From positions 145,685-209,684 of the forward strand of contig JBAZKF010000001.1 of the NCBI GenBank assembly GCA_041650895.1: a stretch of 64,000 nucleotides of DNA, read 5' to 3'. This document shows, piece by piece, positions 19,258-33,488 of this stretch. This stretch comes from Patescibacteria group bacterium (GTDB lineage: Bacteria > Patescibacteriota > Patescibacteriia > 2-01-FULL-39-33). The position numbers were made by a program, and so were the translations under genes. Within the stretch, counting starts at the first letter, position 1; each line of letters begins with the position of its first letter. Below the pieces are notes generated by a model that worked only from the letters and a program-made list of their open reading frames with translations, did not search any database and was not told where the DNA came from.

Positions 19258-20310
19258 CTACCAAAAAACAACTAACCGGACTAACAAGAAATAAGCTTCC
19301 AAAAGCGGATTTGCCACCCAAGACAATAACTTATTCTCTACTTCCTGATTGGTAATCGGACCGACAAACAAACTAAGGATCTCCCGATCAGAAACTCGCC
19401 GTAAATCCTGGATTTTCCGACGCTCGCTCATAATATAACCGAAGTTTTTTATCAGCCACAACCAACCTTTGAACTTTTCCTTAGACCACTCGTTCTTGAT
19501 AGAAAAAGCCGTAATGCCCACTTCCATTATCAGTAACATGGGTGCTAACAAAACTATGGTCGCCAAACGGTAGTTCTTCAGTAAGACAATCCAACGATTG
19601 CGATCCATGTAATAAAACTTGTATCTGGCCTTGGAATAACTGTATTTATGATAAACCACGGAAAGCGGGTCAATAACCACACGATAACCCGATAGCCGTA
19701 AACGCCAACCCAAATCCACATCCTCGTGATACATGAATAATTTTTCATCAAACAAGCCGATTTCCTGAAGCGCCGACAATTTTAACAGTACGGCCGCACC
19801 CGAGGCGTAAGGCAAATCAAACAAAGCCGTATAAGCATGGCTATCCGGCTCGCGGTAATGATCGCAAAAGGCGAAGCCTAAGAATTGGAGGGAATTACCC
19901 AAGCTATTAATCAGGTTCTTCTCCGGATAAAGCAATAGTTTTGATTGCACAGCGGCGATTTTCTCATCGCCGGAAACAGCATTAACCAAGCGCGACAGCC
20001 AATACGGCTCCACAATCGTATCATCATTAAGCAAAACCAGATAATCCGCCTGGTCTTTAGCCCAGGAATAAATCTGGTTATTAGCCGCGGCAAAACCCGC
20101 GTTTCTATCATTGGCGATAACCGTTACTTGCGGCCAAACTTCGGCCAGATATTCTTTGGTTGAATCATGACTGCTGTTATCCACTACCACTACCTGAACC
20201 AACTCGCGCGGATAATTCTGCCGGTTGACGCTATCAAGACAATCAGCGATCTTATGGCGTGAGTTATAGGTAACAATGCCAATGACAACTTTTTTATGAG
20301 GATGAATCAT
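19258..20310 (-). CDS. glycosyltransferase family 2 (rhamnosyl/GalNAc-transferase-like)
   Basis: VVIGIVTYNSRHKIADCLDSV...VVVDNSSHD and DDT (DxD-type). GT-A fold N-terminus; C-terminal hydrophobic segment. Confidence 0.85.
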   Translation of the reverse strand: MIHPHKKVVIGIVTYNSRHKIADCLDSVNRQNYPRELVQVVVVDNSSHDSTKEYLAEVWPQVTVIANDRNAGFAAANNQIYSWAKDQADYLVLLNDDTIVEPYWLSRLVNAVSGDEKIAAVQSKLLLYPEKNLINSLGNSLQFLGFAFCDHYREPDSHAYTALFDLPYASGAAVLLKLSALQEIGLFDEKLFMYHEDVDLGWRLRLSGYRVVIDPLSVVYHKYSYSKARYKFYYMDRNRWIVLLKNYRLATIVLLAPMLLIMEVGITAFSIKNEWSKEKFKGWLWLIKNFGYIMSERRKIQDLRRVSDREILSLFVGPITNQEVENKLLSWVANPLLEAYFLLVRLVVFW

Positions 20311-20629
20311 CTTTTTCCTTTAAGGCTTCGGCCCGAACGACTTTGGTCAGGTCTTTTTCCAATCTCTCAATGCGCCAAAACAAACGAGATAAAATATAAA
20401 ACAAAAAAACCAAAGCCAAATAAACCACCAAGTCAGAACCGCGGCCCACGCCCACGCGATTGGCGATGTCCACTGTCAACTGAGGCCAAATAACAGCCAG
20501 CCCGGCCAAAAACCACAATAACAACCAGCCGATAAATTGCTTGCCTGGCAATTCTTTGGCACGATACTTGGCTGCCAAACGCAGGACAATAACAGCAATA
20601 ATGATTAAAAGAATAATTTGTATAAGCAT
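20294..20629 (-). CDS. DUF2304-family small membrane protein (GT2 partner)
   Basis: 111 aa with three TM helices. Its position immediately downstream of a short polyprenyl-phosphate GT2 is the conserved DUF2304 context. Confidence 0.6.
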   Translation of the reverse strand: MLIQIILLIIIAVIVLRLAAKYRAKELPGKQFIGWLLLWFLAGLAVIWPQLTVDIANRVGVGRGSDLVVYLALVFLFYILSRLFWRIERLEKDLTKVVRAEALKEKDDSSS

Positions 20630-20704
20630 ATTTTGTCTGATGATAATGATTAATTGTTAATTGATAGATAATCAAGGCTACCGGCAAAAACCAACTATTG
20701 ATGA

Positions 20705-21367
20705 CTACTTAATCAGCAAATCCCATAAAATACCAAACGCATTCCAAATGCTTTGGCCTTTCTTGATGGAATAATCGGTATAATGAATTGTTACCGGCAC
20801 TTCACAATATTTGAGTTTGAGACGCTTAATCTCATGCAACACCTCACTGGCATAGGCCTGCCGATCCTGTCCTAAATCCAGAAGTTTTAAAGCTGTTCCG
20901 GCCCAGGCCTGAAAGCCGTTATGCGTATCGGTCAGTTTTAAACCGGTAGTCCAGCAGGTAAAATATAAAGCCAGCTTTTTAGTGATTCTTTTCATTAACG
21001 GCATATTCAAGGCGCGACCCAGATTCCTGGAGCCCAACACCGCGTCATAACCTTCAGCCAATTTAGCGGCCAATAATTTAATCTCTTGCGACTCCATCTG
21101 CCCGTCCGCGTCAAAAAAAACAGCCGCGTCAACGTGGCGGCGAAGAGCATACTCAATTCCGGTTTTAAGCGCCGCTCCCTGGCCACGATTAATTTTGTGC
21201 CGTAAGACATCGGCGCCGGCCGAAGCGGCTAGTTCAGCCGTCGCGTCGCTTGAGCCATCGTCAATAATTACAATCAGAGATTCAGGCTGAGCGGCCTTGA
21301 CTGCCAAAACAACAGAACTGATTTTTTCCGCTTCATTGTAAGCCGGAATAATTATCGCCAATTTCAT
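20705..21367 (-). CDS. glycosyltransferase family 2, polyprenyl-phosphate sugar synthase-like (DPM1/GtrB-type)
   Basis: MKLAIIIPAYNEAEKI...IIDDGSSDAT...FFDADGQ is the classic DPM1-like GT2 core. Confidence 0.85.
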   Translation of the reverse strand: MKLAIIIPAYNEAEKISSVVLAVKAAQPESLIVIIDDGSSDATAELAASAGADVLRHKINRGQGAALKTGIEYALRRHVDAAVFFDADGQMESQEIKLLAAKLAEGYDAVLGSRNLGRALNMPLMKRITKKLALYFTCWTTGLKLTDTHNGFQAWAGTALKLLDLGQDRQAYASEVLHEIKRLKLKYCEVPVTIHYTDYSIKKGQSIWNAFGILWDLLIK

Positions 21368-21370
21368 AAG

Positions 21371-22411
21371 CTAAACCATCTTGACGGAACCAAGGGTTGT
21401 TTCCGGACGCCTTATTCCCTTTTGCGCGCTTAAATAATCAATGGTTTTCTGCAAGCCTTCATCCATCAGAATTATCGGGAACCAGCCCAACTTTTCTTTG
21501 ACCAAAGAGATATTGGCTAAAGGCTGAACCTCAAAATGAGCCGGGCGATTTTTAAATTCAATAATTGACTTGGAGTTAGTCAGGGTGATTATTTTTTTAG
21601 CGATTTCATTGATGCTCATTTTCCATTCCGACGCCATATTGACCGGGCCGCTCTCCCCGCTTTCCATTAACTTCATTAAACCGCGGATTAAATCTGTAAT
21701 ATAAAAATAAGAAGCAAATTCGCTTTCGCGGCCGTAGATGGTAATGGTTGTCCCGCTGTAAGCGGCAGAAATCATTTCTGGAATCATTCGACCGTCAGTT
21801 AAGCTTAGACGCGGACCGTAACAATTGAAAATCCTGGCGATTTTGGTATTAAGCTTATGAGCTAAGCGGTAATTATTAACCAAGGCTTCGCCAAAACGCT
21901 TAGCCTCGGCATAGCAGGCGCGGGGGCCAAATTGATCAACCGGGCCGACATAATCTTCTTTGATCGGCATAGGGCCAGTACCGGCACCGTAGACCGCAGG
22001 CGCCGAAGCGAATAAAATTGAAGCTTCGTATTTAACCGCTAAATCCAAAGCATAACGTAAACCAACCGAGTTTACCAACAGTGTCTCCACCGGATGAGCC
22101 ATATAAGCTTTGGGTGATGTCGGGGAAGCCAAAAAATAAATTTCTTGCACTCCCTGAAAAGCGACTTTGAACTCGGCTAATTCCGGACGACTCTCCAATT
22201 CAATAGGATTTATAATATCATGATTAATAAACTTGAAATCAGGATTGGCCAGCAAGTGGGCGATATTGGACTGATCGCCGGTAAGAAAATTATCAAGACA
22301 GATAACCTTAGCGGTTTTGACCAGCTCATCGCAAAGGTTAGAACCGACGAATCCGGCTCCTCCAATGACTAAAATATTCTTTTTATCAAATATCGCCTTT
22401 TTGACGGGCAT
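21371..22411 (-). CDS. NAD-dependent epimerase/dehydratase (UDP-glucuronate decarboxylase / UDP-sugar 4,6-dehydratase-like SDR)
   Basis: ILVIGGAGFVGSNLCDEL Rossmann GxxGxxG, extended-SDR length (346 aa), and a YxxxK catalytic motif later in the sequence. Confidence 0.78.
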   Translation of the reverse strand: MPVKKAIFDKKNILVIGGAGFVGSNLCDELVKTAKVICLDNFLTGDQSNIAHLLANPDFKFINHDIINPIELESRPELAEFKVAFQGVQEIYFLASPTSPKAYMAHPVETLLVNSVGLRYALDLAVKYEASILFASAPAVYGAGTGPMPIKEDYVGPVDQFGPRACYAEAKRFGEALVNNYRLAHKLNTKIARIFNCYGPRLSLTDGRMIPEMISAAYSGTTITIYGRESEFASYFYITDLIRGLMKLMESGESGPVNMASEWKMSINEIAKKIITLTNSKSIIEFKNRPAHFEVQPLANISLVKEKLGWFPIILMDEGLQKTIDYLSAQKGIRRPETTLGSVKMV

Positions 22412-22494
22412 ACAGTTAAAAGTTACAAATTACTAATTACTTAATTAATTCAATCAAATACGTTACTGCCTTAATCTAATATTCACTCCCTTAT

Positions 22495-22503: not shown

Positions 22504-22524
22504 CAAAATAATAACCCCAGACAA

Positions 22525-22944
22525 CTATCTCTTGAAAGTCCAGAAACGATTTAAACTGAAATTAAAAATAGCGACAATAAACGAAGAGACGGCTTTGGCC
22601 AACAAGTCTGGAATATGCACCAATTCGATCAATAAGCTCAAAAGGCATAAATTCAATGACAAACTTATAATATTGGCAACAAAAAATTTAGCATACTGCC
22701 ATTTCAAACCAGCGCTATGATGACGGAAGGTCCACTTGCGATTCAACTCAAAACTCCAGGTTACAGCCACAGCAAAAGAAATAATGGAAGCGACAAGATA
22801 GTGCAGACCGAATAGGCGGGTCATCAGCCAATAGACGCCCAAATCAACCAAAAAATTAGATGTGCCAACCAGGCAGAATTTGATAAACTGCCGGAACAGT
22901 GACTGTTTGAATAACGGCAACTGATAAATCCTTTCTTTTATCAT
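22525..22944 (-). CDS. GtrA-family membrane protein (polyprenyl-phosphate sugar translocation-associated)
   Basis: FRQFIKFCLVGTSNFLVDLGVYWLMTRLF ... NRKWTFR matches the GtrA family consensus; four TM helices. Start uncertain (22944 or 22992). Confidence 0.72.
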   Translation of the reverse strand: MIKERIYQLPLFKQSLFRQFIKFCLVGTSNFLVDLGVYWLMTRLFGLHYLVASIISFAVAVTWSFELNRKWTFRHHSAGLKWQYAKFFVANIISLSLNLCLLSLLIELVHIPDLLAKAVSSFIVAIFNFSLNRFWTFKR

Positions 22945-23010
22945 TTTTAACATAAAAGTCAGAACCATTAACTTTATTCCATTATAACACAAATCAAATT
23001 AAGTCAAAAC

Positions 23011-23039: not shown

Positions 23040-23050
23040 TAGTTCTGTAA

Positions 23051-24400
23051 TTGATTAATATTATGACCAGTTTTATTATAAAAACCAAAAAATTACTTCT
23101 AATTTTAGGCGATATCGGCTGTCTTTATCTGGCGCTCTACCTGACTCTTTGGCTCCGTTACGGCTCGAGTTTCGACGCCAATTCCTGGCAAATCCACTAT
23201 CGCGCCTTGACTTTTATTTTTATTTTGTGGCTATTGGTTTTTTACATCAGTGATTTTTATGATCTAAAAACCAGCTATAATAACTTTTCCTTATTTTCCA
23301 TCTTATCCAAGGCCACAATAATCAACGGCATTATTGCGGTTTTAGCTTTTTATTTTCTAACTCCGTTTTTCCCCGCCATCAAACCGCAGAAAGTCTTGAT
23401 TATTGATTTGGTTATTACCTTCGCTATACTTTTTGCCTGGCGCAAAATTTTTTACGGCTTGATTAAATCGCCACAGATCGCCAACCATCTTTTGGTCATC
23501 GGACAAAAAAACCTAGCCGAAGAATTAATGAGAGAGCTGGCGCGCCGGCCCCAGTTAGGTTATAGAGCGACGCACCTCAACCAAGTTCCGGAAAATCTAA
23601 AAAAATACTGCCTGGACAGCAACATTGACATCGTTATTGCCGATAATAGCCTGCACACTGACGCCGTTACGGCAAAAAAAATCTTTGATTGTTTGTCTTT
23701 GGGCATTGATGTGCATCAACTGACTGACTTCTATGAAATCATTACGCAAAAAGTGCCGGTGGAATCGATTGAACTAGGATGGTTTCTGGAAAATCTAACT
23801 GAGAATTCCAAAAAATCATACGAGATACTCAAGCGTCTGATAGACATACTCCTATCCGGCATCGGCTTAATCGTAACAGCACCTTTCGTACCCCTTATCG
23901 CTCTCATCATTAAATTAGAAAGCCCCGGACCGATTCTCTTCCGACAGATTAGGGTGGGCAAAAACGGCAAAGAGTTTTTAGCCATTAAATTCCGCTCAAT
24001 GATTGAAAATGCAGAAAAAAACGGCGCTCAATGGGCGACAAAGAATGATTCCCGCGTTACCCGTTTCGGACGCCTAATGCGTAAAACCAGATTAGATGAA
24101 ATTCCCCAGTTGCTTAATATCCTCCGTGGCGAAATGTCCCTAATCGGTCCCAGACCGGAACGGCCGGAATTCATCCAGTCTCTCTCGCAGGAAATCCCCT
24201 TCTATAGCGAACGACTCTTAGTTAAGCCGGGTTTAGCCGGCTGGGCACAACTGCTGGGTCCAGCCTATGGCGGTTCCAAAGAAGAAACATTAGAAAAACT
24301 CAAATATGACCTATACTACGTCAAAAACCGCTCTCTGCTTCTTGATTTAAGTATTATTTTAAAGACAATTAGAGTTGTCTTAGGCGGTAGAGGCCAATAA
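23051..24400 (+). CDS. polyprenyl-phosphate hexose-1-phosphate transferase (bacterial sugar transferase, WbaP/CpsE/EpsB-like initiating enzyme)
   Basis: C-terminal domain PGPILFRQIRVGKNGKEFLAIKFRSM ... DEIPQLLNILRGEMSLIGPRPERPEF is the Bac_transf signature. N-terminal four TM helices. Confidence 0.88.
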   Translation: MINIMTSFIIKTKKLLLILGDIGCLYLALYLTLWLRYGSSFDANSWQIHYRALTFIFILWLLVFYISDFYDLKTSYNNFSLFSILSKATIINGIIAVLAFYFLTPFFPAIKPQKVLIIDLVITFAILFAWRKIFYGLIKSPQIANHLLVIGQKNLAEELMRELARRPQLGYRATHLNQVPENLKKYCLDSNIDIVIADNSLHTDAVTAKKIFDCLSLGIDVHQLTDFYEIITQKVPVESIELGWFLENLTENSKKSYEILKRLIDILLSGIGLIVTAPFVPLIALIIKLESPGPILFRQIRVGKNGKEFLAIKFRSMIENAEKNGAQWATKNDSRVTRFGRLMRKTRLDEIPQLLNILRGEMSLIGPRPERPEFIQSLSQEIPFYSERLLVKPGLAGWAQLLGPAYGGSKEETLEKLKYDLYYVKNRSLLLDLSIILKTIRVVLGGRGQ

Positions 24401-24413: not shown

Positions 24414-25292
24414 ATGAATACATTCCCGGCTTTATCAATAATCATCCCTAATTTCAATGATGGCGAAGCCCTTCCCAAAGTCATTGATTCTTTAGTTAAA
24501 GAATTAACCGAAAACCAGATAACCCACGAGATTATCATTGTTAATGACGGCTCGACCGATCAAAGTGGAGAGTTATTAAGATCAGACAATAGAGTGCGGC
24601 TGCTTAATCATCCCTATAACAAGGGCTACGGCGCCAGCTTGAAAACCGGAGCTAAAAATGCTCGCCACGAATGGCTGGCATTCTTTGACGCTGATGGACA
24701 GCATCAAGCCGAGGATATCAAAAAAATGCTTGCTTATACGGAGAACTTTGACTTGATTTCCGGTGAACGAACCGGTTACCAAGGACCCTGGATTCGCCAA
24801 CCCGGGAAAAAATTGATCCACTTATTGGCTATATATTTGTTAGACAAAAAGATAACTGACTTCAACTGCGGTTTAAGAATCATCAAAAAGAAAGATTTTT
24901 TAAGATTTGTCCATATTTTACCTAATGGTTTTTCCTGTTCAACTACAACATTATTCGCTTTTTTAAGGGAAGGATTGAATGTCAAATTCGTGCCAATTCA
25001 AATAAATAAGAGGGAAAGTGGACAAAGCATGGTCAAACCGAAGGAGTTCATAACTTACTTATTCTTAATCTTGCGGCTAATCATGCTTTTTTCACCCTTA
25101 AGGATATTTCTGCCTATCGGCCTATTATTATTTTTATTAGGCGGAAGTTTATTGGCATTTGACGTTATTAATCAGGGCCGGATTAGCGCCAGTACGGTAT
25201 TAGTCTCATTATCTTCAATATTAATATTTTTCTTCGGCCTGATAGCCGACCAGATTTCCGCCCTCCGAAGAGAGATTAATAACCGTCAATAA
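24414..25292 (+). CDS. glycosyltransferase family 2 with C-terminal TM anchor (DPM1/GtrB-like)
   Basis: LSIIIPNFNDGEALPKVI...IIIVNDGSTDQS...FFDADGQH, then two C-terminal TM helices. Confidence 0.85.
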   Translation: MNTFPALSIIIPNFNDGEALPKVIDSLVKELTENQITHEIIIVNDGSTDQSGELLRSDNRVRLLNHPYNKGYGASLKTGAKNARHEWLAFFDADGQHQAEDIKKMLAYTENFDLISGERTGYQGPWIRQPGKKLIHLLAIYLLDKKITDFNCGLRIIKKKDFLRFVHILPNGFSCSTTTLFAFLREGLNVKFVPIQINKRESGQSMVKPKEFITYLFLILRLIMLFSPLRIFLPIGLLLFLLGGSLLAFDVINQGRISASTVLVSLSSILIFFFGLIADQISALRREINNRQ

Positions 25293-26837: not shown

Positions 26838-27828
26838 AGAGCTGACAAAAGACCAAGAACAAGCTTGGGAAAATTTCTTAAACAATTGCGAAGAATCTAA
26901 CTTCTCCCATAGTCTTAGAATGCGAAAAATTATCCGCGACAATTATGGATTCGCTGATAATTACCTGGTTAGCACCAACGACCGAGGATTAATCGTCGGG
27001 ATTCTGCCGCTTTTTAAGATCAACAAGAAAAAGTCAGTCTCATTGCCCTTCACTGACTCAGCCGGCTTTATCGGCAATGAATCAGCCTTATCGGAATTTG
27101 CTGATTACCTGATGAGACAAACTGCTAAGGATAGCAAGGAATATGAATTACGCCAAGCTGAGGCGAGAAACTTTAGCCAGGCATCGCTAAGCACCGACAA
27201 TATATCTTCGATGATTGATTTAAAAGAAGATTCAGACAACTTATGGAAGAGAATTGATAAAAAAGCCAGAAACCAGGTGCGCAAAGCCGAAAAATACAAT
27301 CCGGAATATTTAAGACAAAAAGAATTATTAGCCGATTTTTACCTGCTCTATCTCAAATCAATGAAACGGCACGGCACGCCAGCCCATAAAGTGACTTTCT
27401 TTGCCAACATAATGGAACAATTTGACGGCATCATCTGCGCCGTTAAATACAATAATCAGACAGTCGCCGCCGCTTTGACTTTTATCCATAAGAATATATT
27501 GCATATTCCTTGGGCGGCCTCTGACAGAAAGTTTAAATCATTAAATTTTAATGACTACCTCTACTGGCGGATGATTTCTGAATCATGCGACAGGGGGCTT
27601 GACGGAGTAGATCTCGGCAGATCGCAAGTTGATTCCCCTGTAGCCAAATTCAAAAATCAATGGGATTGCCGCGATACCGTTCTGCAATACTATTTAATAT
27701 CATCAAAAAGAAAAAATAATAAAGCACCACAAAAATCCGGGTTACGTTATTTAGCAAAGATTTACCGTTTATTGCCATTAAATATCACTGCCCTAATCGG
27801 TCCCCGACTAAGGAAATACCTGCCCTAA
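26827..27828 (+). CDS. FemAB-like / GNAT-fold acyl(aminoacyl)transferase (EPS-locus associated)
   Basis: Start at ATG 26827 (MAIKELTKDQ) with AGGA upstream. The architecture resembles the FemAB-related proteins that accompany deacetylases in PEP-CTERM EPS loci. Weak, fold-level call. Confidence 0.5.
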   Translation: MAIKELTKDQEQAWENFLNNCEESNFSHSLRMRKIIRDNYGFADNYLVSTNDRGLIVGILPLFKINKKKSVSLPFTDSAGFIGNESALSEFADYLMRQTAKDSKEYELRQAEARNFSQASLSTDNISSMIDLKEDSDNLWKRIDKKARNQVRKAEKYNPEYLRQKELLADFYLLYLKSMKRHGTPAHKVTFFANIMEQFDGIICAVKYNNQTVAAALTFIHKNILHIPWAASDRKFKSLNFNDYLYWRMISESCDRGLDGVDLGRSQVDSPVAKFKNQWDCRDTVLQYYLISSKRKNNKAPQKSGLRYLAKIYRLLPLNITALIGPRLRKYLP

Positions 27829-27832: not shown

Positions 27833-29251
27833 ATGACAAAAAAAATACTGCTAATTAACCCTGCCCAGTTTCAACCGATCGCCGCCAATCAGCCAGAAAT
27901 CTACGACAAAGAAATAGATTACCTGCCGTCATTGGGAATTTTATATTTGGCTTCCTATTTGAAAAAATTCGGTAATCATGAAATCAAAATTGCGGATTGC
28001 GGCGTAGAAAATATCAGTTACGACGGAATTGGCGATATCGCCAAAGATTTTAAACCGGATATAGTCGGTATAACCGCTTTAACTTTCGTCCTATTAGACG
28101 TCATAGCCATTATTAAAGCGATCAAAACGTCATTTCCCGGGACTTTAATCGTTCTAGGCGGTCCTCATCCGAATTTATACCCCAATGAAACCATTAACCT
28201 GCCCGGAGTGGATTTCATTGTCCTGGGCGAAGGCGAAAAACCGTTTAAGGAGTTGATTGATAATATTGATGATCGCGAAAAATTAAAAACAACACCTGGA
28301 TTGATCTTTAAACTTAATGGAGAAATAATCAACACCGGCCATTGCGAATTAATCAGCAATTTGGACGAATTGCCTTTTCCAGCTCGACAACTGACAAAAT
28401 ATGACAAGTATTTTTCTATCATCGCGCAAAAATCTCCGGTTACCACTATGTTCACTTCTCGCGGCTGTCCTTACCGCTGCCTGTTTTGCGATCGGCCGTA
28501 TTTAGGGAAAATTTTCCGCGCTCGCAGCGCCAAAAACGTCGTTGATGAAATGGCAGAGATTAAAAAAATGGGGATTGAAGAAATCTTCATCTATGACGAC
28601 ACCTTCACCATTAATCGCCAGAGAACTATCGACATTTGCCACGAAGTAATTAACAGAAAATTAGAAATCAATTGGGATATCCGCGCTCGCGTCAATACGG
28701 TTGATGAAGAGGTGCTTCACTGGCTAAAAATAGCCGGCTGCCGGAGAATCCATTTCGGCGTTGAAGCGGGAACTCAAAAGATACTTGATATACTCAAAAA
28801 AGATATCACGCTGGAGATGGTGGAAAAAGTAATCGGCTGGACAAAAAAAGAGGGCATTGAAACCCTCGCCTACTTCATGATCGGCAATCCTTCGGAAACC
28901 TTGGCCGACATTGAACAAACAATAGCATTCGCCAAAAAGATTGATCCGGATTATATTAATGTTTCTATTACCACTCCTTTCCCGGGCACCCAGTTATACG
29001 ATCAGGCTCTGGAAACAGGCATCATCAAAAGCGATGTCTGGAGGGAATTCGCGGCCAACCCTTCAACGCAATTCATTCCGCCGTTATGGACGGAGAATTT
29101 CTCCCGCGACGAGCTGATCGGCTTAATGCGTCAATTCTACGGTTCTTTCTACCGACGCCCCAAATATATCATCAAAAAACTTCTGGCCGTCAAATCCTGG
29201 GGCGAGTTAGTCAGAAAAGCCAAGGCCGGCTGGCAAGTATTAAAATTCTAA
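27833..29251 (+). CDS. cobalamin-binding (class B) radical SAM enzyme, paralog 1
   Basis: N-terminal Rossmann-like B12-binding region (KILLINPAQ...GILYLASYLKK...DIVGITA), DELPFPARQL, then TSRGCPYRCLFCD (CxxxCxxC) and the radical SAM TIM core. Confidence 0.9.
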   Translation: MTKKILLINPAQFQPIAANQPEIYDKEIDYLPSLGILYLASYLKKFGNHEIKIADCGVENISYDGIGDIAKDFKPDIVGITALTFVLLDVIAIIKAIKTSFPGTLIVLGGPHPNLYPNETINLPGVDFIVLGEGEKPFKELIDNIDDREKLKTTPGLIFKLNGEIINTGHCELISNLDELPFPARQLTKYDKYFSIIAQKSPVTTMFTSRGCPYRCLFCDRPYLGKIFRARSAKNVVDEMAEIKKMGIEEIFIYDDTFTINRQRTIDICHEVINRKLEINWDIRARVNTVDEEVLHWLKIAGCRRIHFGVEAGTQKILDILKKDITLEMVEKVIGWTKKEGIETLAYFMIGNPSETLADIEQTIAFAKKIDPDYINVSITTPFPGTQLYDQALETGIIKSDVWREFAANPSTQFIPPLWTENFSRDELIGLMRQFYGSFYRRPKYIIKKLLAVKSWGELVRKAKAGWQVLKF

Positions 29252-29254
29252 AAC

Positions 29255-30682
29255 CTATTTAAGGACGTTTTTAAAAATGTTAAGTCCCAGCAGAATATCT
29301 TTCAAGTCTGCCAGGGACTTGATTTTTTTTAGCCGATAAATAATATATTTCGGACGTAAATAAAACTTAATAAAGGCTTTGCGTTTTAATTTCAGCAGGG
29401 TATCACTGCTTAAATCGGGCAAATCCATCGGCGGTATATGATTGGAGACTGAACAAAAATCACTCCAATCAAAATCTTTCCTGATGTATCCGCGAGCCTT
29501 TGCTTCTTCATACATGGGAGTTCCCGGATAAGGAATGGCAACAAAAAAGGCTGCTGTGTCCAGATCCAAGCTACAAGCAAAATCAATCGTCTGATTAACC
29601 GTCCAAGGATCTTCGTCAATATAACCAATAATGAATGCTCCGGAAACCAAGATGTCGTTTTTACGGCATAAGTCAACGGCTATTCTAGCTTGTTCCAGTG
29701 TGGCGCCCTTGCACATCTTATCTAAAATTCTCTGCGAGCCCGATTCAAAACCAAAACCGATCCTTTTACAGCCGGCCCGTCTCATTAACTTGAGCATTTC
29801 ATTATTTACCGAATCAACTCTGGCCATAACCACCCAAGAGATATCCAGCTTCCGCCGGATAATCTCTTCACAAAATTCCTTCACTCTATCTTTATTAGCC
29901 GTAAAGAGTTCGTCATGGAAATTAAAAGAAGTAGCCTGGTAATTTTTCATGCATTCTTCAATCTCGGCCAAAACATTACTCACACTCCTAGTACGATAGC
30001 GCCTTTTCCAAACTGATTCCGCCATGCAAAAACCGCAACGATAAGGACAGCCGCGGCCGGATATGATATTAATCGCCTGCCCCGAGTCCGTCGTTCTGGT
30101 CGGCGGCAAGTAATACTTTTCAACCGGCAATAAATCACGAGCCGGGAACGGTATGGTATCAAGATTATCAATCAGCGGGCGGGGTTCTGTTATTAATATT
30201 TCAGCATTATCGCGATAAGCGATGCCTTTAATCACCCCGAAATCGACTTGCTCGGATATTAAGGCGCGGATTAATTCCAAAAAAGTGACTTCCCCTTCGC
30301 CCAAGACGCAAAAATCTATTGCCGGCATACCCCGCATTGTTTCTTCGGCGGCAATTGTCGGATGTGGCCCGCCGACAATGATTTTTATTGCGGGATTAAT
30401 GACTTTTATCCGCCGCGTAATTTCTTTGAGTTGTTTATAGACAGGCGTGGGGAAAGTCAAAGCGATAAATTGCGGCATGATTTCCTTAATCTTTTCATCT
30501 ATCTGATCATAGGACATTTCCAATGCCTCACCGTCAAGAATTGTTATTTCTACTTCCTGTTCATATTGGCGCAAATAAGCCGCCAGATAAGCCAAATTAA
30601 GCGGAGCGGTTTTCCCACCCTGCCCTTCGATACCGTCATAATTAGTGAAAGGCGGATTAATCAATAAAAGTTTATACTTCAT
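29255..30682 (-). CDS. cobalamin-binding radical SAM enzyme, paralog 2
   Basis: MKYKLLLINPP..., DTIPFPARDLLP, SGRGCPYRCGFC. Confidence 0.9.
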   Translation of the reverse strand: MKYKLLLINPPFTNYDGIEGQGGKTAPLNLAYLAAYLRQYEQEVEITILDGEALEMSYDQIDEKIKEIMPQFIALTFPTPVYKQLKEITRRIKVINPAIKIIVGGPHPTIAAEETMRGMPAIDFCVLGEGEVTFLELIRALISEQVDFGVIKGIAYRDNAEILITEPRPLIDNLDTIPFPARDLLPVEKYYLPPTRTTDSGQAINIISGRGCPYRCGFCMAESVWKRRYRTRSVSNVLAEIEECMKNYQATSFNFHDELFTANKDRVKEFCEEIIRRKLDISWVVMARVDSVNNEMLKLMRRAGCKRIGFGFESGSQRILDKMCKGATLEQARIAVDLCRKNDILVSGAFIIGYIDEDPWTVNQTIDFACSLDLDTAAFFVAIPYPGTPMYEEAKARGYIRKDFDWSDFCSVSNHIPPMDLPDLSSDTLLKLKRKAFIKFYLRPKYIIYRLKKIKSLADLKDILLGLNIFKNVLK

Positions 30683-31653
30683 AAGTCGGTCTTTTTAAAA
30701 AAATTCTTTACGGGTAAAAAAATAGCAATTAAAATTAATAAATAAGCGAGACTAAACAAATGTACTATGAAACCAGAAATAATAGACGCTTCCTTATTTA
30801 AGCCTAATAGTCCGAAGCTGATAGCCCAACCTGTTTCATAAGTTCCGAAGTCCCACAATCCCTGGATAGGCAAAAAACTTATTAATTGACTAAAAATCAA
30901 ACCCAGAGTTACTTTAAGCCAGTTAAAATCTATATTTAGGGCACGGAAAAAAACTACGATCATTAAAGAAGCGGACGCCAGCCACAAGAACGAAATCAAC
31001 AAATTAGTCAAGTAAACGGGCCAGGAACGAATTGTTTTGACGCTTGTTGCAACCTCTTCCAACTTAGTAGCCAGCTTAGCGCCAAATTGAAATTTAGTCA
31101 ATCTTGCCCAATGCATTAAAATAACAACCGCTTTAACCAGCCAATCAAGGTAGAATAATATGGCAATCGTGGCTAACCCAAGCATAAAACAGCTTAGATA
31201 GATTCTATTAGGCGGAATGTAGCCGGGGTTAAGCAAAATAAAACCGATCAGAAAAGAAAAAGCCACTGCCAAAAGATCAAAAAATCTGGCTACCAACAGG
31301 ACACTAAGCCCTTCTGCTATGGCTACATTCTCACGTTTTTTTATGAAATAAACAAAACTTAACTCACCGCTTCTAAACGGCATTAAATTACAAAAAAAAG
31401 TATAACCCAAAGTAATTTTCAAGGAACTCAAAAAACTTATTTTCTTAGAAAGAATCAAGACTTGCCAGCGCCAAGCCCGCAAACAAACGCCGATAAAATA
31501 AAAAATAAACGCGATTAAAGCGTAAGTCCATGATATATTTGAAATAATATCCCTGGCTTGAGTGAAATCAATCTGAGTTAAAAGCAAACACAATAAAATT
31601 ATGGTTACGGCCAAGGAGATTGTTTTTTTGCGCTTGGTTATCTTTTTCAACAT
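30679..31653 (-). CDS. UPF0104 / LPG-synthase-TM-like flippase-like membrane protein
   Basis: 324 aa with eight TM helices. The N-terminus MLKKITKRKKTISLAVTIILLCLLL...LRAWRWQVLL is characteristic of this family, which is commonly paired with polyprenyl-phosphate GT2s. Confidence 0.6.
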   Translation of the reverse strand: MLKKITKRKKTISLAVTIILLCLLLTQIDFTQARDIISNISWTYALIAFIFYFIGVCLRAWRWQVLILSKKISFLSSLKITLGYTFFCNLMPFRSGELSFVYFIKKRENVAIAEGLSVLLVARFFDLLAVAFSFLIGFILLNPGYIPPNRIYLSCFMLGLATIAILFYLDWLVKAVVILMHWARLTKFQFGAKLATKLEEVATSVKTIRSWPVYLTNLLISFLWLASASLMIVVFFRALNIDFNWLKVTLGLIFSQLISFLPIQGLWDFGTYETGWAISFGLLGLNKEASIISGFIVHLFSLAYLLILIAIFLPVKNFFKKTDL

Positions 31654-33488
31654 TATTTTATCAAGTTAAGAAACCACATCTTGCCGGGACTGGTTTCAGC
31701 TTCTATTATTCCCGCCTGAGGCCAATCGACAATGTTTATCGCTTGGCTACTGGAGGAAATCTGCCCCGCTAATTCAGCATCATAACCAATTATATATTTT
31801 ACATTATAAACGTCAAAAGCCGACTGAAGTTTTTGCTCCTGCAATAAATGGTTGATAGTATTCGGAGAAAAATAGACAGTTGATACTCCGGTTAAATAAT
31901 TCAACAGAGGATGCAATGACCTATTGCCTACGGCCACCGCCTCTTCCGGTTTGATGGCGACACCCCAAGAACTGATTTGCTCAGCTGAATAAGCAATTTT
32001 CAAATTTATATTATTATCATATCCCCGGCCCCAATAGACATGATTAGCCTGGACTAAGCCATAAATGATTAAAAGAATAATCACCCCGCCGGCCAGCCGA
32101 CTAAATCTCTTTGCAACATAATAATCGCTGATCATCTTAGCTAAGCTCATCAAGCCCAGACTGATAAAAAGAGCAATCACCCAACCCCAATCCATTAAAT
32201 GATTGCGTGAGGCCAGAACGACGTAACTGGAAATAAAAATAGAAAACACCAGCCAACTGACAAAAAGATTGGTTAGATTCTTGTCTCGACGACTCAAGTC
32301 TTTAATACCCAATAACATTAAAATAAAAAACAGTGATCCGCCAATATACTCCAAGGCGAGAAATCGAGAAAGATGCGCCAGCAGATTATTGGATCCGACA
32401 AGAGCCCGCTCCGCCAAATTGATGGGGCGTATGCCGATATTGGCCCCCACCTTAATCAAGTCAATGCTCTTCAATAATCCTCGACCAGCTATGTCGGAAT
32501 TAAATTTGTCTAAAACCGTTTTCTGATCAAAATAAAAAGTATAGGGATCGGGGAAAAGATGGCCGTAAAAATTAAACTCAGACCAATTATTGGTTTGCGT
32601 CTCGCTGGCAAAAAACACCCTGAAATAATCATTATTACCGCTAAAACCGAATATCGCCGGCAACCAGAAAAAAGCTAATATTACAAAAAAAGGAACAAAC
32701 ACCAAACTGATGTTTCCAAGACTGCTTTTGACGGCATTGTTCCTTAAACCGGTTAAGACGGTTTTAAAACGTAACCAAATCAATCGGAAAAAAGACAAAT
32801 CCGTACGGGAATCGATAATAAGGGGTTGCTCTGAGGACTGAAAAATCAACCAAAAAAATAAAACTGGCGGAAATAAGAACATCACTTCCCGCGACAGGCA
32901 AGCTAGCGACAAAAAGACTCCGGACAAAGGCAGAAAAAAATATCTGCCCTTGACTTTACGGCCGATAAAAAACAAAACGCAAAAAACTGAAAAATACAGC
33001 ATCGCGAATTCGTAGGTGCCGATAGTTTGAACCATCTGGGAATTAAACGGCAATAAGATATAAACCAAAGAAAATATTGCGGCTATTTCCCAATCAAACA
33101 AATAAAACACGACGGCCGCAAATAAAACCAAAGCCAATGCCTGAATAATTACGGCAATGACTATTAAAGTGTTGAAATCTGGCAAGCCGATCAACTGAAA
33201 TAATGCAGCATAAGACCAGGTAGTAAACTTATTGCCCTGGGTACTGAGCTGAGCCCGCTGGCTGACTAAAGACGGCGCCAAAACGACATTGCGGCTGTCC
33301 TCCATGCCGTAAACCCCCGTTTGGACAAGATTCCTGGCCAAAATAAAATTCTCCGCTTCGGCCGGTTGGGCAGTACTGCCCTTAAAAAAAACCGGAAAAT
33401 ACCAAAAACCGGCTGCAACAAAAAAAACTACGGGCAATAAAACAAAAAGAATCGAGCTCTTAAACCTAAAATTTGGCTGTTGCGACAT
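31653..33488 (-). CDS. large polytopic membrane protein, unknown function (candidate GT-C-like glycosyltransferase or polymerase)
   Basis: 611 aa with more than 12 TM helices and a C-terminal soluble region of about 150 aa. No recognisable motif. Confidence 0.5.
   Translation of the reverse strand: MSQQPNFRFKSSILFVLLPVVFFVAAGFWYFPVFFKGSTAQPAEAENFILARNLVQTGVYGMEDSRNVVLAPSLVSQRAQLSTQGNKFTTWSYAALFQLIGLPDFNTLIVIAVIIQALALVLFAAVVFYLFDWEIAAIFSLVYILLPFNSQMVQTIGTYEFAMLYFSVFCVLFFIGRKVKGRYFFLPLSGVFLSLACLSREVMFLFPPVLFFWLIFQSSEQPLIIDSRTDLSFFRLIWLRFKTVLTGLRNNAVKSSLGNISLVFVPFFVILAFFWLPAIFGFSGNNDYFRVFFASETQTNNWSEFNFYGHLFPDPYTFYFDQKTVLDKFNSDIAGRGLLKSIDLIKVGANIGIRPINLAERALVGSNNLLAHLSRFLALEYIGGSLFFILMLLGIKDLSRRDKNLTNLFVSWLVFSIFISSYVVLASRNHLMDWGWVIALFISLGLMSLAKMISDYYVAKRFSRLAGGVIILLIIYGLVQANHVYWGRGYDNNINLKIAYSAEQISSWGVAIKPEEAVAVGNRSLHPLLNYLTGVSTVYFSPNTINHLLQEQKLQSAFDVYNVKYIIGYDAELAGQISSSSQAINIVDWPQAGIIEAETSPGKMWFLNLIK

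What the first reader, a model, noticed from the sequence alone, without database searches (positions are those of the whole stretch)
19258..33488. Multiple polyprenyl-phosphate sugar synthase-like GT2s with GtrA, DUF2304, UPF0104 and large membrane proteins imply extracytoplasmic glycosylation from lipid-linked monosaccharides
Four DPM1/GtrB-like GT2s (20705, 24414, 49069, 57163) accompany a GtrA-family protein, a DUF2304 protein, a UPF0104 flippase-like protein, and at least two stand-alone polytopic membrane proteins (31653..33488 in the locus and 6758..8620 upstream) plus two membrane-domain fusions. In established systems (Gtr O-antigen glucosylation, ArnC/ArnT, mycobacterial PPM/GT-C) this combination means sugars are activated on polyprenyl phosphate, flipped, and transferred by GT-C enzymes outside the cytoplasm. 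This locus probably therefore decorates its glycan on both faces of the membrane.
Basis: inference. Interest (0 to 1): 0.5.

Follow-up and report, generated by a model that had tools for sequence, protein, structure and literature searches.

The report
Two-sided glycan locus with radical-SAM cassettes

Summary
All listed genes exist at the stated coordinates. The four GT2s (20705, 24414, 49069, 57163) are closest to polyprenyl-phosphate sugar synthases (DPMS, ArnC, GtrB, PpgS, AglJ). A control GT2 is not.

Only 24414 has the two C-terminal TM helices of GtrB/ArnC. 20705 pairs with DUF2304, as GacI/GacJ and PpgS/Rv3632 do.

All four large membrane proteins or domains classify as GT-C:
- N-terminus of 45035-47599: Pfam PMT_2 above threshold
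- C-terminus of 59352-61559: 35 of 49 homologues hit PMT_2; hhalign 90%

6758-8620 belongs to a conserved housekeeping cluster, not to this locus.

The set GT2_49069, B12-rSAM_47611, GT-C and rSAM/SPASM recurs in other Patescibacteria unfused, pairwise fused or triple fused.

This is a new variant of a known kind. Radical-SAM tailoring of the lipid-linked sugar is inferred, not shown.

The parts
19258..20310 (-). GT2, ordinary GT-A type (350 aa); last gene of the GtrA operon
   Evidence: Pfam Glycos_transf_2. Best NCBIfam matches are MftF, EpsD and PgaC, not DPMS or ArnC.
20294..20629 (-). DUF2304 small membrane protein (3 TM), GacJ/Rv3632-like partner of the adjacent GT2
   Evidence: Pfam PF10066, E 5e-24. 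TM scan. GacJ and Rv3632 stimulate GacI and PpgS (bioRxiv 10.1101/180810).
20705..21367 (-). Soluble GT2 (220 aa), PpgS/GacI-like polyprenyl-phosphate (amino)sugar synthase candidate
   Evidence: Best NCBIfam match is PpgS: 165 bits, full length, below the equivalog cut-off. Top PDB hits are ArnC and DPMS. FFDADGQ motif present. No TM.
21371..22411 (-). NAD-dependent sugar epimerase/dehydratase (SDR)
   Evidence: Pfam Epimerase, E 3.5e-37. NCBIfam matches lie below all cut-offs.
22525..22992 (-). GtrA-family small membrane protein; candidate Pol-P-sugar flippase
   Evidence: Pfam GtrA_DPMS_TM, E 1.3e-32, above GA.
23051..24400 (+). Polyprenyl glycosylphosphotransferase (large PGT); initiates the Und-PP-linked glycan
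   Evidence: Pfam Bac_transf, E 6e-68. NCBIfam TIGR03025 scores 376 bits, above the 295.55 cut-off.
24414..25292 (+). GT2 (292 aa) with two C-terminal TM helices: GtrB/ArnC-type Pol-P-sugar synthase candidate
   Evidence: TM helices at about 214-249 and 260-281. Top PDB hits are ArnC (E 2.5e-17, aligned to residue 252), GtrB sll0501 and DPMS. FFDADGQ motif present.
25307..26011 (+). Class I SAM methyltransferase
   Evidence: Pfam Methyltransf_11.
25998..26837 (+). Polysaccharide deacetylase with DUF3473; cytoplasmic, no TM
   Evidence: Pfam result. NCBIfam TIGR03006 scores 188.6 bits, below cut-off.
26785..27828 (+). FemAB-like/GNAT acyl- or aminoacyl-transferase
   Evidence: Pfam Acetyltransf_6 and FemAB. 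NCBIfam TIGR03019 scores 184 bits, below cut-off.
27833..29251 (+). B12-binding radical SAM enzyme (HpnJ/BchE-like)
   Evidence: Pfam B12-binding plus Radical_SAM. CPYRCLFC motif. HpnJ match of 252 bits is below cut-off. Orthologues accompany MEM_31653 homologues in L001 and L002.
29255..30682 (-). B12-binding radical SAM enzyme
30679..31653 (-). UPF0104/LPG_synthase_TM flippase-like membrane protein
   Evidence: Pfam E 1e-31. NCBIfam TIGR00374 above cut-off. Co-occurs with MEM_31653 homologues.
31653..33488 (-). GT-C-fold membrane glycosyltransferase (611 aa, about 11 TM plus a C-terminal alpha/beta domain); Patescibacteria-specific family without a Pfam model
33498..34586 (-). Radical SAM enzyme (non-B12); paralogue of the rSAM domain of the fusion
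   Evidence: Pfam result. 28% identity over 215 aa to the fusion's rSAM domain.
34590..35546 (-). GT2, ordinary GT-A type (control)
   Evidence: Top PDB hits are 3bcv, GalT1 and chondroitin synthase. No DPMS, ArnC or GtrB hit.
35551..36975 (-). B12-binding radical SAM enzyme
36984..38213 (-). GT4 cytoplasmic glycosyltransferase
38217..39551 (-). Wzx-type (Polysacc_synt) flippase
   Evidence: Pfam PF01943 and PF13440. About 10 TM.
39562..41058 (-). B12-binding radical SAM enzyme
41122..42258 (-). GT9 (heptosyltransferase-like) glycosyltransferase
42255..43670 (-). B12-binding radical SAM enzyme
43672..45207 (-). B12-binding radical SAM enzyme; the true start is probably near 45027
   Evidence: Orthologues are about 451-455 aa.
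45035..47599 (-). Fusion protein (854 aa): PMT_2-type GT-C domain (aa 1 to about 465) plus radical SAM/SPASM domain (about 500-854)
   Evidence: Pfam PMT_2 33.4 bits (above GA 26.1), Radical_SAM and SPASM. The same architecture occurs in 6 homologues from independent contigs, and GT2-GT-C-rSAM triple fusions also exist. C64-D65-W-H-P-P-L-Y-Y72 is invariant. Hydropathy gives 9 strong and 1 weak TM, followed by a K/R-rich linker.
47611..49050 (-). B12-binding radical SAM enzyme lying between GT2_49069 and the GT-C fusion; orthologues hold the same position elsewhere
   Evidence: Orthologues at 67-74% in L008, L010 and L014, and 47% in L013, each next to the GT2 and GT-C orthologues.
49069..49764 (-). 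Soluble DPMS-like GT2 (231 aa); split counterpart of the GT2 domain fused to the GT-C in relatives
   Evidence: Top PDB hits are PfDPMS (E 4e-18), ArnC and GtrB. 58-60% identical to the N-terminal domains of P0018, P0020 and P0035. QDADLEYNP motif.
49769..50425 (-). Class I SAM methyltransferase
50435..51577 (-). GT4 glycosyltransferase
51550..53709 (-). B12-binding radical SAM fused to a MetW-like class I methyltransferase (719 aa)
   Evidence: Conserved at 80-87% in L005 and L006.
53696..54775 (-). GT4 glycosyltransferase
54780..55514 (-). Polysaccharide N-deacetylase with an N-terminal TM or signal segment (IcaB/PgaB-like); probably extracytoplasmic
   Evidence: Pfam result. TM at 12-30. 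NCBIfam IcaB and PgaB matches are below cut-off.
55498..56589 (-). GT4 glycosyltransferase
56570..57172 (-). Class I SAM methyltransferase
57163..57858 (-). Soluble DPMS-like GT2 (231 aa); paralogue of 49069 (44% identity)
   Evidence: Best NCBIfam matches are AglJ, ArnC, PgfS and PpgS. QDADLEYNP motif. Orthologues sit directly beside stand-alone short GT-C genes in L006 and L008.
57874..59346 (-). B12-binding radical SAM enzyme between GT2_57163 and the GT4-GT-C fusion
   Evidence: A 72% orthologue holds the same position in L003.
59352..61559 (-). Fusion protein (735 aa): cytoplasmic GT4 (aa 1 to about 365) plus a short PMT_2-like GT-C membrane domain (aa about 375-735, 10-11 TM)
   Evidence: GT4 domain. 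The C-terminal domain family has 211 representative clusters. 35 of 49 aligned homologues hit PMT_2. hhalign against the PMT_2 family A2 gives 90% probability, E 1.7e-6. D412 is nearly invariant in the first outer loop.
61568..63013 (-). B12-binding radical SAM enzyme
63010..64000 (-). GT4 glycosyltransferase, cut by the window end; the locus continues
   Evidence: The frame is open to 63999.
6758..8620 (-). GT-C-fold membrane protein of a Patescibacteria-wide family; it lies in a conserved housekeeping cluster and is not shown to belong to the locus

Best explanation
This is the larger part of a surface-glycan locus of at least 45 kb. The source is a Patescibacteria (CPR) bacterium related to Ca. 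Buchananbacteria. The locus combines two assembly routes.

Route 1, inferred from family membership:
- A polyprenyl glycosylphosphotransferase (23051) starts an Und-PP-linked oligosaccharide.
- Seven GT4s, a GT9 and two ordinary GT2s extend it on the cytoplasmic face.
- A Wzx-type flippase (38217) exports it.

- Four DPMS/GtrB/ArnC/PpgS-like GT2s charge polyprenyl phosphate with single sugars on the cytoplasmic face.
- Small flippase-like proteins (GtrA 22525, UPF0104 30679) move these lipids outward.
- GT-C-fold transferases (31653; the N-terminus of 45035; the C-terminus of 59352) add the sugars to the glycan or to another acceptor outside the cell.

Comparative context pairs the parts into branches:
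- GT2_49069 with GT-C 45035
- GT2_57163 with GT-C 59352
- GT2_24414 with UPF0104 and GT-C 31653
- GT2_20705/DUF2304/GtrA has no adjacent GT-C

Each of the first three branches carries its own cobalamin-type radical SAM gene, and one GT-C is fused to a radical SAM/SPASM domain. I infer that these enzymes tailor the sugars of the branches, most simply by C-methylation or by oxidation/epimerisation. They may act while the sugar is still on the lipid carrier at the cytoplasmic face.

What is shown: gene content, folds, family affinities, TM anchors, fusions and conserved adjacency. What is inferred: the donors, the flippase roles, the acceptor and every radical SAM reaction.
For: GT2 class:
- The nearest solved structures of 49069, 24414 and 20705 are PfDPMS, ArnC and GtrB. 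The control GT2_34590 hits none of these.
- The best NCBIfam matches are PpgS, AglJ, ArnC and PgfS.
- All four carry the DAD motif at about residue 90.
- 24414 has two C-terminal TM helices.
- 20705 sits beside a DUF2304 gene, the arrangement shown experimentally for GacI/GacJ and PpgS/Rv3632.

GT-C class:
- PMT_2 scores above GA for the 45035 fusion.
- For the 59352 C-terminal domain, 35 of 49 homologues hit PMT_2 and hhalign gives 90%.

Coupling of GT2 and GT-C:
- GT2-GT-C and GT2-GT-C-rSAM fusion proteins exist in relatives, and their GT2 domain is 58-60% identical to GT2_49069.
- GT2_57163 orthologues lie directly next to stand-alone short GT-C genes in L006 and L008.
- MEM_31653 homologues co-occur with GT2_24414-like, UPF0104, B12_27833-like and B12_29255-like genes in L001 and L002.

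Route 1:
- TIGR03025 PGT scores above cut-off.

Radical SAM link:
- There are ten B12-rSAM genes, all with CxxxCxxC and only 23-37% identical to one another.
- Orthologues of B12_47611 and of the rSAM/SPASM domain accompany the GT2_49069 and GT-C orthologues in L008, L010, L013 and L014, in different fusion states.
- Hydropathy places the rSAM domain on the same side as the N-terminus, where relatives carry a cytoplasmic GT2.
Against: - No biochemical data exist for any of these proteins.
- None of the GT2s reaches a curated equivalog cut-off, and none of the B12-rSAMs does either.
- 31653 and 6758 have no significant sequence match to GT-C families: PMT_2 scores 18.9 bits, below GA; hhalign gives 12% and 0.7%. 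Their assignment rests on predicted models, and the model of 31653 was built from only 10 sequences (pLDDT 74).
- Fold alone cannot separate Pol-P-monosaccharide users from oligosaccharyltransferases. AglB, STT3 and PglB are among the top hits.
- Three of the four GT2s lack TM anchors, so their membrane association is assumed.
- The GtrA/GT2_20705 operon has no adjacent GT-C.
- No ligase, polymerase or LCP gene was recognised in the window, so the acceptor is unknown.
- The radical SAM enzymes might instead act on nucleotide sugars or on the Und-PP-oligosaccharide.
Confidence: 0.75

Rival explanations
1. One or more of the GT-C proteins, most plausibly 31653-33488, is not a Pol-P-monosaccharide-dependent decorating enzyme. 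It would instead be the terminal transferase of route 1: an AglB/PglB-like oligosaccharyltransferase or ligase that moves the finished Und-PP-glycan en bloc onto a protein (S-layer or pilin) or onto the wall.
For: - 31653 has a C-terminal alpha/beta domain after about 11 TM helices, as OSTs do.
- The window shows a PGT and a Wzx but no recognisable ligase or polymerase.
- In L002 the homologue lies directly beside the Wzx gene.
Against: - ALG12, Pmt4, AftA, ALG9 and ArnT, all Pol-P-monosaccharide users, score equally well or better.
- No WWDxG-type motif is visible among the invariant residues of the C-terminal domain.
- The conserved neighbours are a GtrB-type GT2 and a UPF0104 flippase-like protein.
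Confidence: 0.2
2. The DPMS-like GT2s do not make donors for GT-C enzymes. They would instead prime glycan assembly on polyprenyl monophosphate, as AglJ does in Haloferax N-glycosylation, or act as ordinary cytoplasmic glycosyltransferases on the growing chain. The co-location with GT-C genes would then only reflect a crowded glycan locus.
For: - AglJ is the best NCBIfam match of 49069 and 57163.
- Three of the four GT2s have no TM anchor.
- All scores lie below the equivalog cut-offs.
Against: - Covalent GT2-GT-C fusions exist with 58-60% identity to GT2_49069.
- GT2_57163 orthologues are immediately adjacent to short GT-C genes in unrelated contigs.
- The DUF2304 partner and the GtrA gene match known donor-synthase systems.
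- A separate PGT already provides a primer.
Confidence: 0.08
3. The radical SAM enzymes are unrelated to the Pol-P-sugar branches. They would tailor nucleotide sugars or the Und-PP-oligosaccharide in the cytoplasm, for example by C-methylating sugars. Alternatively they would belong to another pathway (peptide or lipid modification) interleaved with the glycan genes. The GT-C-rSAM fusion would then serve only to tether the enzyme to the membrane.
For: - B12-rSAM genes also lie between GT4, GT9 and Wzx genes, away from any GT2/GT-C pair: 35551, 39562, 42255, 43672 and 61568.
- The closest curated families are generic: HpnJ, BchE, ApyD and PhpK.
- SPASM enzymes are mostly peptide maturases.
Against: - Orthologues of B12_47611 and of the rSAM/SPASM domain track the GT2_49069/GT-C pair across lineages and fusion states.
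- Triple fusions GT2-GT-C-rSAM exist.
- No precursor-peptide or RiPP genes were seen.
Confidence: 0.4

Closest known systems
GacI/GacJ/GacK/GacL of Streptococcus pyogenes (GlcNAc side chain of the group A carbohydrate)
   Same: - A soluble GT2 of about 230 aa and a DUF2304 small membrane protein make a Und-P-sugar.
- A flippase and a GT-C then add the sugar outside to a polymer built on Und-PP.
- GT2_20705 with DUF2304_20294 reproduces the GacI/GacJ pair.
- The locus also has a Wzx-family protein and GT-C proteins.
   Different: - No GT-C lies adjacent to the 20705 operon.
- The best curated match is PpgS rather than GacI, and it is below cut-off.
- The locus has four such synthases rather than one, plus radical SAM partners that the Gac system lacks.
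PpgS (Rv3631)/Rv3632/Rv3779 of Mycobacterium tuberculosis (GalN on arabinogalactan)
   Same: - GT2_20705 aligns with the PpgS model over its full length (E 1e-48).
- It is followed by a DUF2304 gene, as Rv3631 is by Rv3632.
- An SDR epimerase/dehydratase gene lies upstream.
   Different: - The score of 165 bits is well below the 370-bit equivalog cut-off.
- The sugar is unknown, and no Rv3779 orthologue was identified.
GtrA/GtrB/Gtr(type) O-antigen glucosylation cassettes and ArnC/ArnD/ArnEF/ArnT
   Same: - GT2_24414 is a TM-anchored GT2 that aligns to ArnC and GtrB through the TM region.
- The locus also has a GtrA-family protein, deacetylases of the ArnD superfamily (PF01522) and GT-C transferases.
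   Different: - The genes are not arranged as a three-gene cassette: GtrA and GT2_24414 lie in divergent operons.
- The locus is chromosomal and conserved, not phage-borne.
- No equivalog cut-off is met.
- Many more tailoring genes are present.
HpnI/HpnK/HpnJ (hopanoid side chain) and calditol synthase Cds
   Same: - In both systems a sugar sitting on a membrane lipid is rebuilt by a radical SAM enzyme (review PMC13459092). In the Hpn pathway a GT2 and a deacetylase act first.
- HpnJ is the best curated match of six of the ten B12-rSAMs.
- The order GT2_24414, deacetylase 25998, B12-rSAM 27833 mirrors HpnI, HpnK, HpnJ.
   Different: - The lipid here would be a polyprenyl phosphate carrier, not a hopanoid or an archaeal lipid.
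- Scores are far below the HpnJ cut-off (252 bits at most against 577.6).
- No hopanoid genes are present in the window.

Membership tests
Polyprenyl-phosphate glycosyl synthases of GT2 (DPMS/GtrB/ArnC/GacI/PpgS type) | GT-A catalytic domain with the DAD (DXD) motif near residue 90 | tested here: met
   The motif is FFDADGQ in 20705 and 24414, and QDADLEYNP in 49069 and 57163. The two other GT2s have different motifs.
Polyprenyl-phosphate glycosyl synthases of GT2 (DPMS/GtrB/ArnC/GacI/PpgS type) | Closest characterised relatives are Pol-P-sugar synthases rather than ordinary GT2s | tested here: met
   Top PDB hits are PfDPMS, ArnC and GtrB. The best NCBIfam matches are PpgS, AglJ, ArnC and PgfS. 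The control GT2_34590 hits none of them. 57163 was tested by NCBIfam and by its 44% identity to 49069 only.
Polyprenyl-phosphate glycosyl synthases of GT2 (DPMS/GtrB/ArnC/GacI/PpgS type) | Score above a curated equivalog cut-off (PpgS 370, ArnC 529, AglJ 325 bits) | tested here: not met
   The best scores are 165 (20705 against PpgS), 112 (57163 against AglJ), 100 (49069 against AglJ) and 78 (24414 against PpgS) bits. They are therefore relatives, not orthologues, of the named enzymes.
Polyprenyl-phosphate glycosyl synthases of GT2 (DPMS/GtrB/ArnC/GacI/PpgS type) | Membrane attachment: C-terminal TM hairpin (GtrB/ArnC) or a DUF2304 partner (GacI/PpgS) | tested here: inconclusive
   24414 has two TM helices. 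20705 has an adjacent DUF2304 gene. 49069 and 57163 have neither in this genome, only a C-terminal amphipathic stretch, although 49069 orthologues are fused to a GT-C elsewhere.
Polyprenyl-phosphate glycosyl synthases of GT2 (DPMS/GtrB/ArnC/GacI/PpgS type) | Formation of a polyprenyl-monophosphate sugar from a nucleotide sugar | not testable with these tools
   This needs an enzyme assay.
GT-C glycosyltransferases (GT-C_A fold; ArnT/PMT/ALG/STT3/Aft type) | GT-C transmembrane fold | tested here: met
GT-C glycosyltransferases (GT-C_A fold; ArnT/PMT/ALG/STT3/Aft type) | Significant match to a GT-C sequence family (Pfam PMT_2/PMT) | tested here: inconclusive
   Met for the 45035 N-domain (33.4 bits, above 26.1). 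Met at family level for the 59352 C-domain (35 of 49 homologues; hhalign 90%), but the window sequence itself has no hit. Not met for 31653 (18.9 bits) or for 6758, which has no hit.
GT-C glycosyltransferases (GT-C_A fold; ArnT/PMT/ALG/STT3/Aft type) | Conserved carboxylate in an extracytoplasmic loop (the first loop in the three locus proteins) | tested here: met
   D65 is invariant in C-D-W-H-P-P-L-Y-Y of the fusion family. D412 of 59352 is nearly invariant. In 31653, E46 is nearly invariant and E63 invariant. D214 is invariant in G-F-G-G-D of 6758. A catalytic role has not been tested.
GT-C glycosyltransferases (GT-C_A fold; ArnT/PMT/ALG/STT3/Aft type) | Use of a polyprenyl-phosphate-linked donor on the outer face | not testable with these tools
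   Only genomic coupling to DPMS-like GT2s is available.
Gtr three-gene O-antigen modification cassette (GtrA-GtrB-Gtr type) | Contiguous gtrA-gtrB-gtr(type) operon, usually prophage-borne | tested here: not met
   GtrA (22525, minus strand) and the GtrB-type GT2 (24414, plus strand) lie in divergent operons. The nearest GT-C is 7 kb away. The locus is conserved chromosomally in relatives.
Cobalamin-dependent (class B) radical SAM enzymes | N-terminal B12-binding domain plus a radical SAM core with CxxxCxxC | tested here: met
   All ten score above the Pfam gathering thresholds for both domains. All have an intact CxxxCxxC.
Cobalamin-dependent (class B) radical SAM enzymes | Membership of a characterised subfamily (HpnJ, BchE, GenK-like C-methylases and others) | tested here: not met
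   The nine that were scanned all fall below every NCBIfam cut-off. The best is HpnJ at 252 bits against 577.6. 39562 has no match at E <= 1e-30.

The most novel reading that the evidence does not exclude
A conserved four-part cassette makes, radically tailors and delivers one unusual sugar.

The four parts:
- a DPMS-like GT2
- a cobalamin radical SAM enzyme
- a PMT_2-type GT-C
- a radical SAM/SPASM enzyme

The cassette is found unfused, pairwise fused or as one 1,080-aa polypeptide.

Proposed sequence of events:
1. The GT2 loads a sugar onto polyprenyl phosphate.
2. The radical SAM enzymes modify that lipid-linked sugar on the cytoplasmic face, by C-methylation and/or oxidation-epimerisation.
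3. The GT-C transfers the product outside.

Radical SAM chemistry on a polyprenyl-phosphate sugar carrier has not been described in the literature I could search. With ten cobalamin enzymes in a genome of about 1 Mb, the cell's surface glycan would depend on cobalamin. The organism probably has to scavenge it, although the window does not show this.
Probability: 0.3. Interest if true: 0.75.

Novelty: new variant of a known kind. Interest (0 to 1): 0.58.

Why it matters
Three things give it weight.

First, the source is a CPR/Patescibacteria bacterium. Its contig is 957,791 bp, so the locus takes about 5% of it. The surfaces of these organisms are almost unstudied.

Second, two Patescibacteria-specific membrane protein families without any Pfam model can now be assigned to the GT-C fold. 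One of them (6758-8620) sits in a core housekeeping cluster of the group.

Third, the repeated linkage and fusion of Pol-P-sugar synthase, GT-C and radical SAM enzymes gives a concrete hypothesis that can be tested in E. coli. The hypothesis is that unusual (for example C-methylated) sugars are made on a lipid carrier. It also suggests that envelope construction in these symbionts depends on cobalamin.

Tried and rejected
- Sequence-only searches of the PDB found nothing for 31653, 6758, or the profiles A1-A4.
- Profile-profile comparison of the 31653 family with the PMT_2 family gave only 12% probability. The 6758 family gave 0.7%. Fold assignment therefore had to come from predicted structures.
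- Pfam at E <= 10 found nothing for 6758 or for the window's own 59352 C-domain.
- Exact-sequence look-ups of the fusion and of B12_61568 failed, probably because the gene callers used different starts.
- Exact DNA search with the window's last 61 bases found no contig in the metagenome or genome collections. What lies beyond 64000 remains unknown.
- The afdb50 fold library was not available.
- Literature searches for Patescibacteria or CPR with radical SAM, B12 or GT-C returned nothing relevant.
- I considered that the GT-C-rSAM fusion might be an assembly or frameshift artefact. Six homologues from independent contigs have the same 825-854 aa architecture, and others extend it with a GT2.
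- I considered that the ten B12-rSAMs might be recent duplicates or decaying copies. They share only 23-37% identity and all keep the cluster motif.

Full report
**What is in the window**

ORF listing and Pfam/NCBIfam scans divide the window in two.

Positions 1-19164 hold housekeeping genes:
- a helicase-like ORF that runs off the start
- MurA, a PEGA protein, a deaminase and HIT
- a 620-aa membrane protein at 6758-8620
- TatD, CvpA, MetRS and a TP_methylase
- LUD/CCG lactate-utilisation genes, ZIP, tRNA-Val, tRNA-Ala and SIMPL

From 19258 to the window end there is an uninterrupted glycan locus of 38 genes. The last gene is cut by the window end: its frame is still open at 63999.

The exact protein of 31653-33488 is on record as WC473_00935 of a 'Patescibacteria group bacterium' MAG, on a contig of 957,791 bp. 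The nearest relative is a Ca. Buchananbacteria MAG. The locus therefore takes about 5% of that contig.

**Checking the observation**

- four GT2s at 20705, 24414, 49069 and 57163
- GtrA at 22525-22992
- DUF2304 at 20294-20629
- UPF0104/LPG_synthase_TM at 30679-31653
- polytopic proteins at 31653-33488 and 6758-8620
- two fusions with membrane domains at 45035-47599 and 59352-61559

**Are the four GT2s of the polyprenyl-phosphate sugar synthase kind?**

Against all PDB sequences, the best hits of 49069, 24414 and 20705 are Pyrococcus DPMS, ArnC and GtrB (sll0501). The control GT2_34590 hits only ordinary GT-A enzymes.

The best NCBIfam matches are PpgS for 20705 (165 bits, full length) and AglJ, ArnC, PgfS and PpgS for the others. 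None reaches an equivalog cut-off. 57163 is 44% identical to 49069. All four carry DAD near residue 90.

Only 24414 has the two C-terminal TM helices of GtrB/ArnC, and it aligns to ArnC into that region. 20705, 49069 and 57163 are soluble.

20705 is followed by a DUF2304 gene. In S. pyogenes the soluble GT2 GacI and the DUF2304 protein GacJ form a complex that makes GlcNAc-P-Und for the GT-C GacL. Rv3632 similarly stimulates PpgS (bioRxiv 10.1101/180810).

**Are the large membrane proteins GT-C?**

Sequence methods mostly failed. The exception is the N-terminal domain of 45035-47599, which passes Pfam PMT_2 (33.4 bits against 26.1).

I collected homologues: 10 for 31653 and more than 50 for 6758, all from Patescibacteria-type sources and all without Pfam domains. 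I then predicted structures.

For the C-terminal domain of 59352-61559, an exhaustive phmmer search found 211 representative clusters, mostly stand-alone proteins of about 360 aa. Of 49 aligned homologues, 35 hit PMT_2, with a best E-value of 1.6e-12. Their profile aligns to the PMT_2 family of the other fusion at 90% probability, E 1.7e-6.

Each family keeps a carboxylate in an extracytoplasmic loop, the first one in the three locus proteins. The prediction holds.

**One correction on 6758-8620**

Homologues at 36-41% identity in unrelated contigs keep the same neighbours: TP_methylase, MetRS, CvpA, TatD, [GT-C], HIT, then PEGA and MurA. No glycan locus lies nearby. The protein has a GT-C fold, but it belongs to a core housekeeping cluster of the group and not demonstrably to this locus.

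**Coupling of GT2 and GT-C**

Homologues of the 45035 fusion occur in four forms:
- GT-C alone (about 470 aa)
- GT2 + GT-C (about 700 aa)
- GT-C + rSAM/SPASM (about 850 aa)
- GT2 + GT-C + rSAM/SPASM (about 1,080 aa)

The GT2 domain of those fusions is 58-60% identical over its full length to GT2_49069. So 49069 and 45035 are the split form of a protein that is fused elsewhere.

Orthologues of GT2_57163 lie directly beside stand-alone short GT-C genes that are orthologous to the 59352 C-domain, in L006 and L008.

Homologues of 31653 at 40-44% identity sit with GT2_24414-like, UPF0104, B12_27833-like and B12_29255-like genes in L001 and L002.

Together with the PGT (TIGR03025 above cut-off), seven GT4s, a GT9, two ordinary GT2s and a Wzx flippase, this supports glycan assembly on both faces of the membrane. 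A deacetylase with an N-terminal TM segment and IcaB/PgaB affinity (54780) adds a likely external tailoring step.

The locus holds ten B12-binding radical SAM genes: 27833, 29255, 35551, 39562, 42255, 43672, 47611, 51550 (fused to a MetW-like methyltransferase), 57874 and 61568. It also holds a plain radical SAM gene (33498) and the rSAM/SPASM domain of the 45035 fusion.
- The ten are old paralogues: 23-37% identity, all with CxxxCxxC.
- None reaches a curated family cut-off. HpnJ and BchE are the usual best matches.

A B12-rSAM gene sits between the GT2 and the GT-C in two branches (49069-47611-45035 and 57163-57874-59352), and two flank the third.

Orthologues of B12_47611 (47-74% identity) and of the rSAM/SPASM domain (51-66%) accompany the GT2_49069 and GT-C orthologues as follows:
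- L014 and L008: all four parts are separate genes.
- L010: GT2, B12-rSAM and GT-C (partial contig).
- L013, Ca. Falkowbacteria: a GT2-GT-C fusion followed by the B12 orthologue, with the SPASM orthologue 7 kb away.
- The window, L005 and L006: GT-C and rSAM are fused.
- L003 and L004: all three of GT2, GT-C and rSAM are fused.

**Topology of the fusion**

Family-averaged hydropathy of the fusion gives nine strong and one weak TM segment, followed by a K/R-rich linker. Relatives carry a cytoplasmic GT2 at the N-terminus. This fits ten TM helices with both ends inside. The loops 34-86 (invariant C-D-W-H-P-P-L-Y-Y) and 240-382 would lie outside, and the radical SAM domain would be in the cytoplasm.

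**Mechanism**

Shown:
- gene content and family affinities
- predicted folds and TM anchors
- fusions and conserved adjacency

Inferred from established knowledge of the Gac, Gtr, Arn and mycobacterial PPM/DPA systems:
- The GT2s load single sugars on polyprenyl phosphate inside.
- GtrA, UPF0104 or Wzx-like proteins flip them.
- The GT-C proteins transfer them outside to a glycan that was started by the PGT and exported by Wzx.

More speculative, at about 0.3: the radical SAM enzymes act on the lipid-linked sugar before flipping. Precedents for tailoring a lipid-linked sugar include:
- ArnD and DprE1/E2 (my own knowledge)
- HpnI, HpnK and HpnJ, and calditol synthase (review PMC13459092)

That review does not mention polyprenyl carriers. 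My literature searches found nothing on such a system or on these loci in CPR bacteria.

**Rivals**

- 31653 could be an AglB/PglB-like oligosaccharyltransferase or ligase for the finished glycan. The fold cannot decide this, and no other ligase was recognised in the window.
- The radical SAM enzymes may act on nucleotide sugars or on the Und-PP-oligosaccharide. Five B12-rSAM genes are not next to any GT2/GT-C pair.
- The GT2s could be primers or ordinary GTs. This is the least likely rival, given the fusions.

**Verdict**

The conserved, variably fused GT2/B12-rSAM/GT-C/rSAM-SPASM cassette in a minimal-genome lineage makes it a new variant worth experimental follow-up.

Noticed in passing
window 27833-63013 (ten genes; see parts): Ten divergent B12-binding radical SAM genes, a plain rSAM gene and an rSAM/SPASM domain lie in one glycan locus of a genome of about 1 Mb. 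None reaches any curated NCBIfam cut-off. The finding as written did not mention them.
   Followed up: partly
window 6758-8620; L011 8001-9794; L012 8001-10112: The Pfam-less GT-C-fold protein keeps the neighbourhood TP_methylase, MetRS, CvpA, TatD, [GT-C], HIT, then PEGA and MurA at 36-41% identity. This suggests a core envelope function in Patescibacteria that is independent of the glycan locus. The motif G-F-G-G-D-x-x-R-H is invariant.
   Followed up: partly
L013 12273-13823 and 14523-14966: In Ca. Falkowbacteria, the gene after the GT2-GT-C fusion and its B12-rSAM encodes a 516-aa protein with SQHop_cyclase_N/C and weak DUF4430 hits. A separate DUF4430 protein follows. From memory, this architecture resembles transcobalamin-type B12 binders, so it may be a cobalamin-capture system beside the B12 enzymes.
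   Followed up: no
window 18201-18351 (-): tRNA-Val(cac) and tRNA-Ala(cgc) lie just outside the low-coordinate edge of the locus. GC content in the locus (0.37-0.45) is slightly lower than in the housekeeping part (0.42-0.52). The locus is nevertheless conserved in relatives, so recent transfer is not indicated.
   Followed up: partly
window 51550-53709 (-): A 719-aa fusion joins a B12-binding radical SAM enzyme to a MetW-like class I SAM methyltransferase. It is conserved at 80-87% in two Buchananbacteria MAGs (L005, L006).
   Followed up: no
window 25998-27828 (+): The deacetylase with DUF3473 and the FemAB-like protein are closest to the XrtA/PEP-CTERM-associated families TIGR03006 and TIGR03019, both below cut-off. 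No exosortase or PEP-CTERM gene was seen in the window.
   Followed up: no
window 43672-45207 (-): The listed ORF start (GTG at 45207) overlaps the upstream fusion gene by 172 nt. Orthologues are about 451-455 aa, so the real start is probably near 45027.
   Followed up: partly
L009 9998-11152 (Ca. Fischerbacteria MFGW01000132.1): A stand-alone rSAM/SPASM protein 52% identical to the C-terminal domain of the fusion occurs in a non-CPR candidate phylum. None of the other locus genes is nearby.
   Followed up: no
L001 8225-9997; L002 9086-10600: Further Pfam-less proteins of 590 and 504 aa lie next to or near the 31653 homologues in related loci. They may be additional unrecognised membrane transferases.
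   Followed up: no
window 3-2111 (-): A reading frame of more than 703 aa runs off the window start. It carries a GSGKT helicase motif and has a higher GC content (0.52) than the rest of the window.
   Followed up: no
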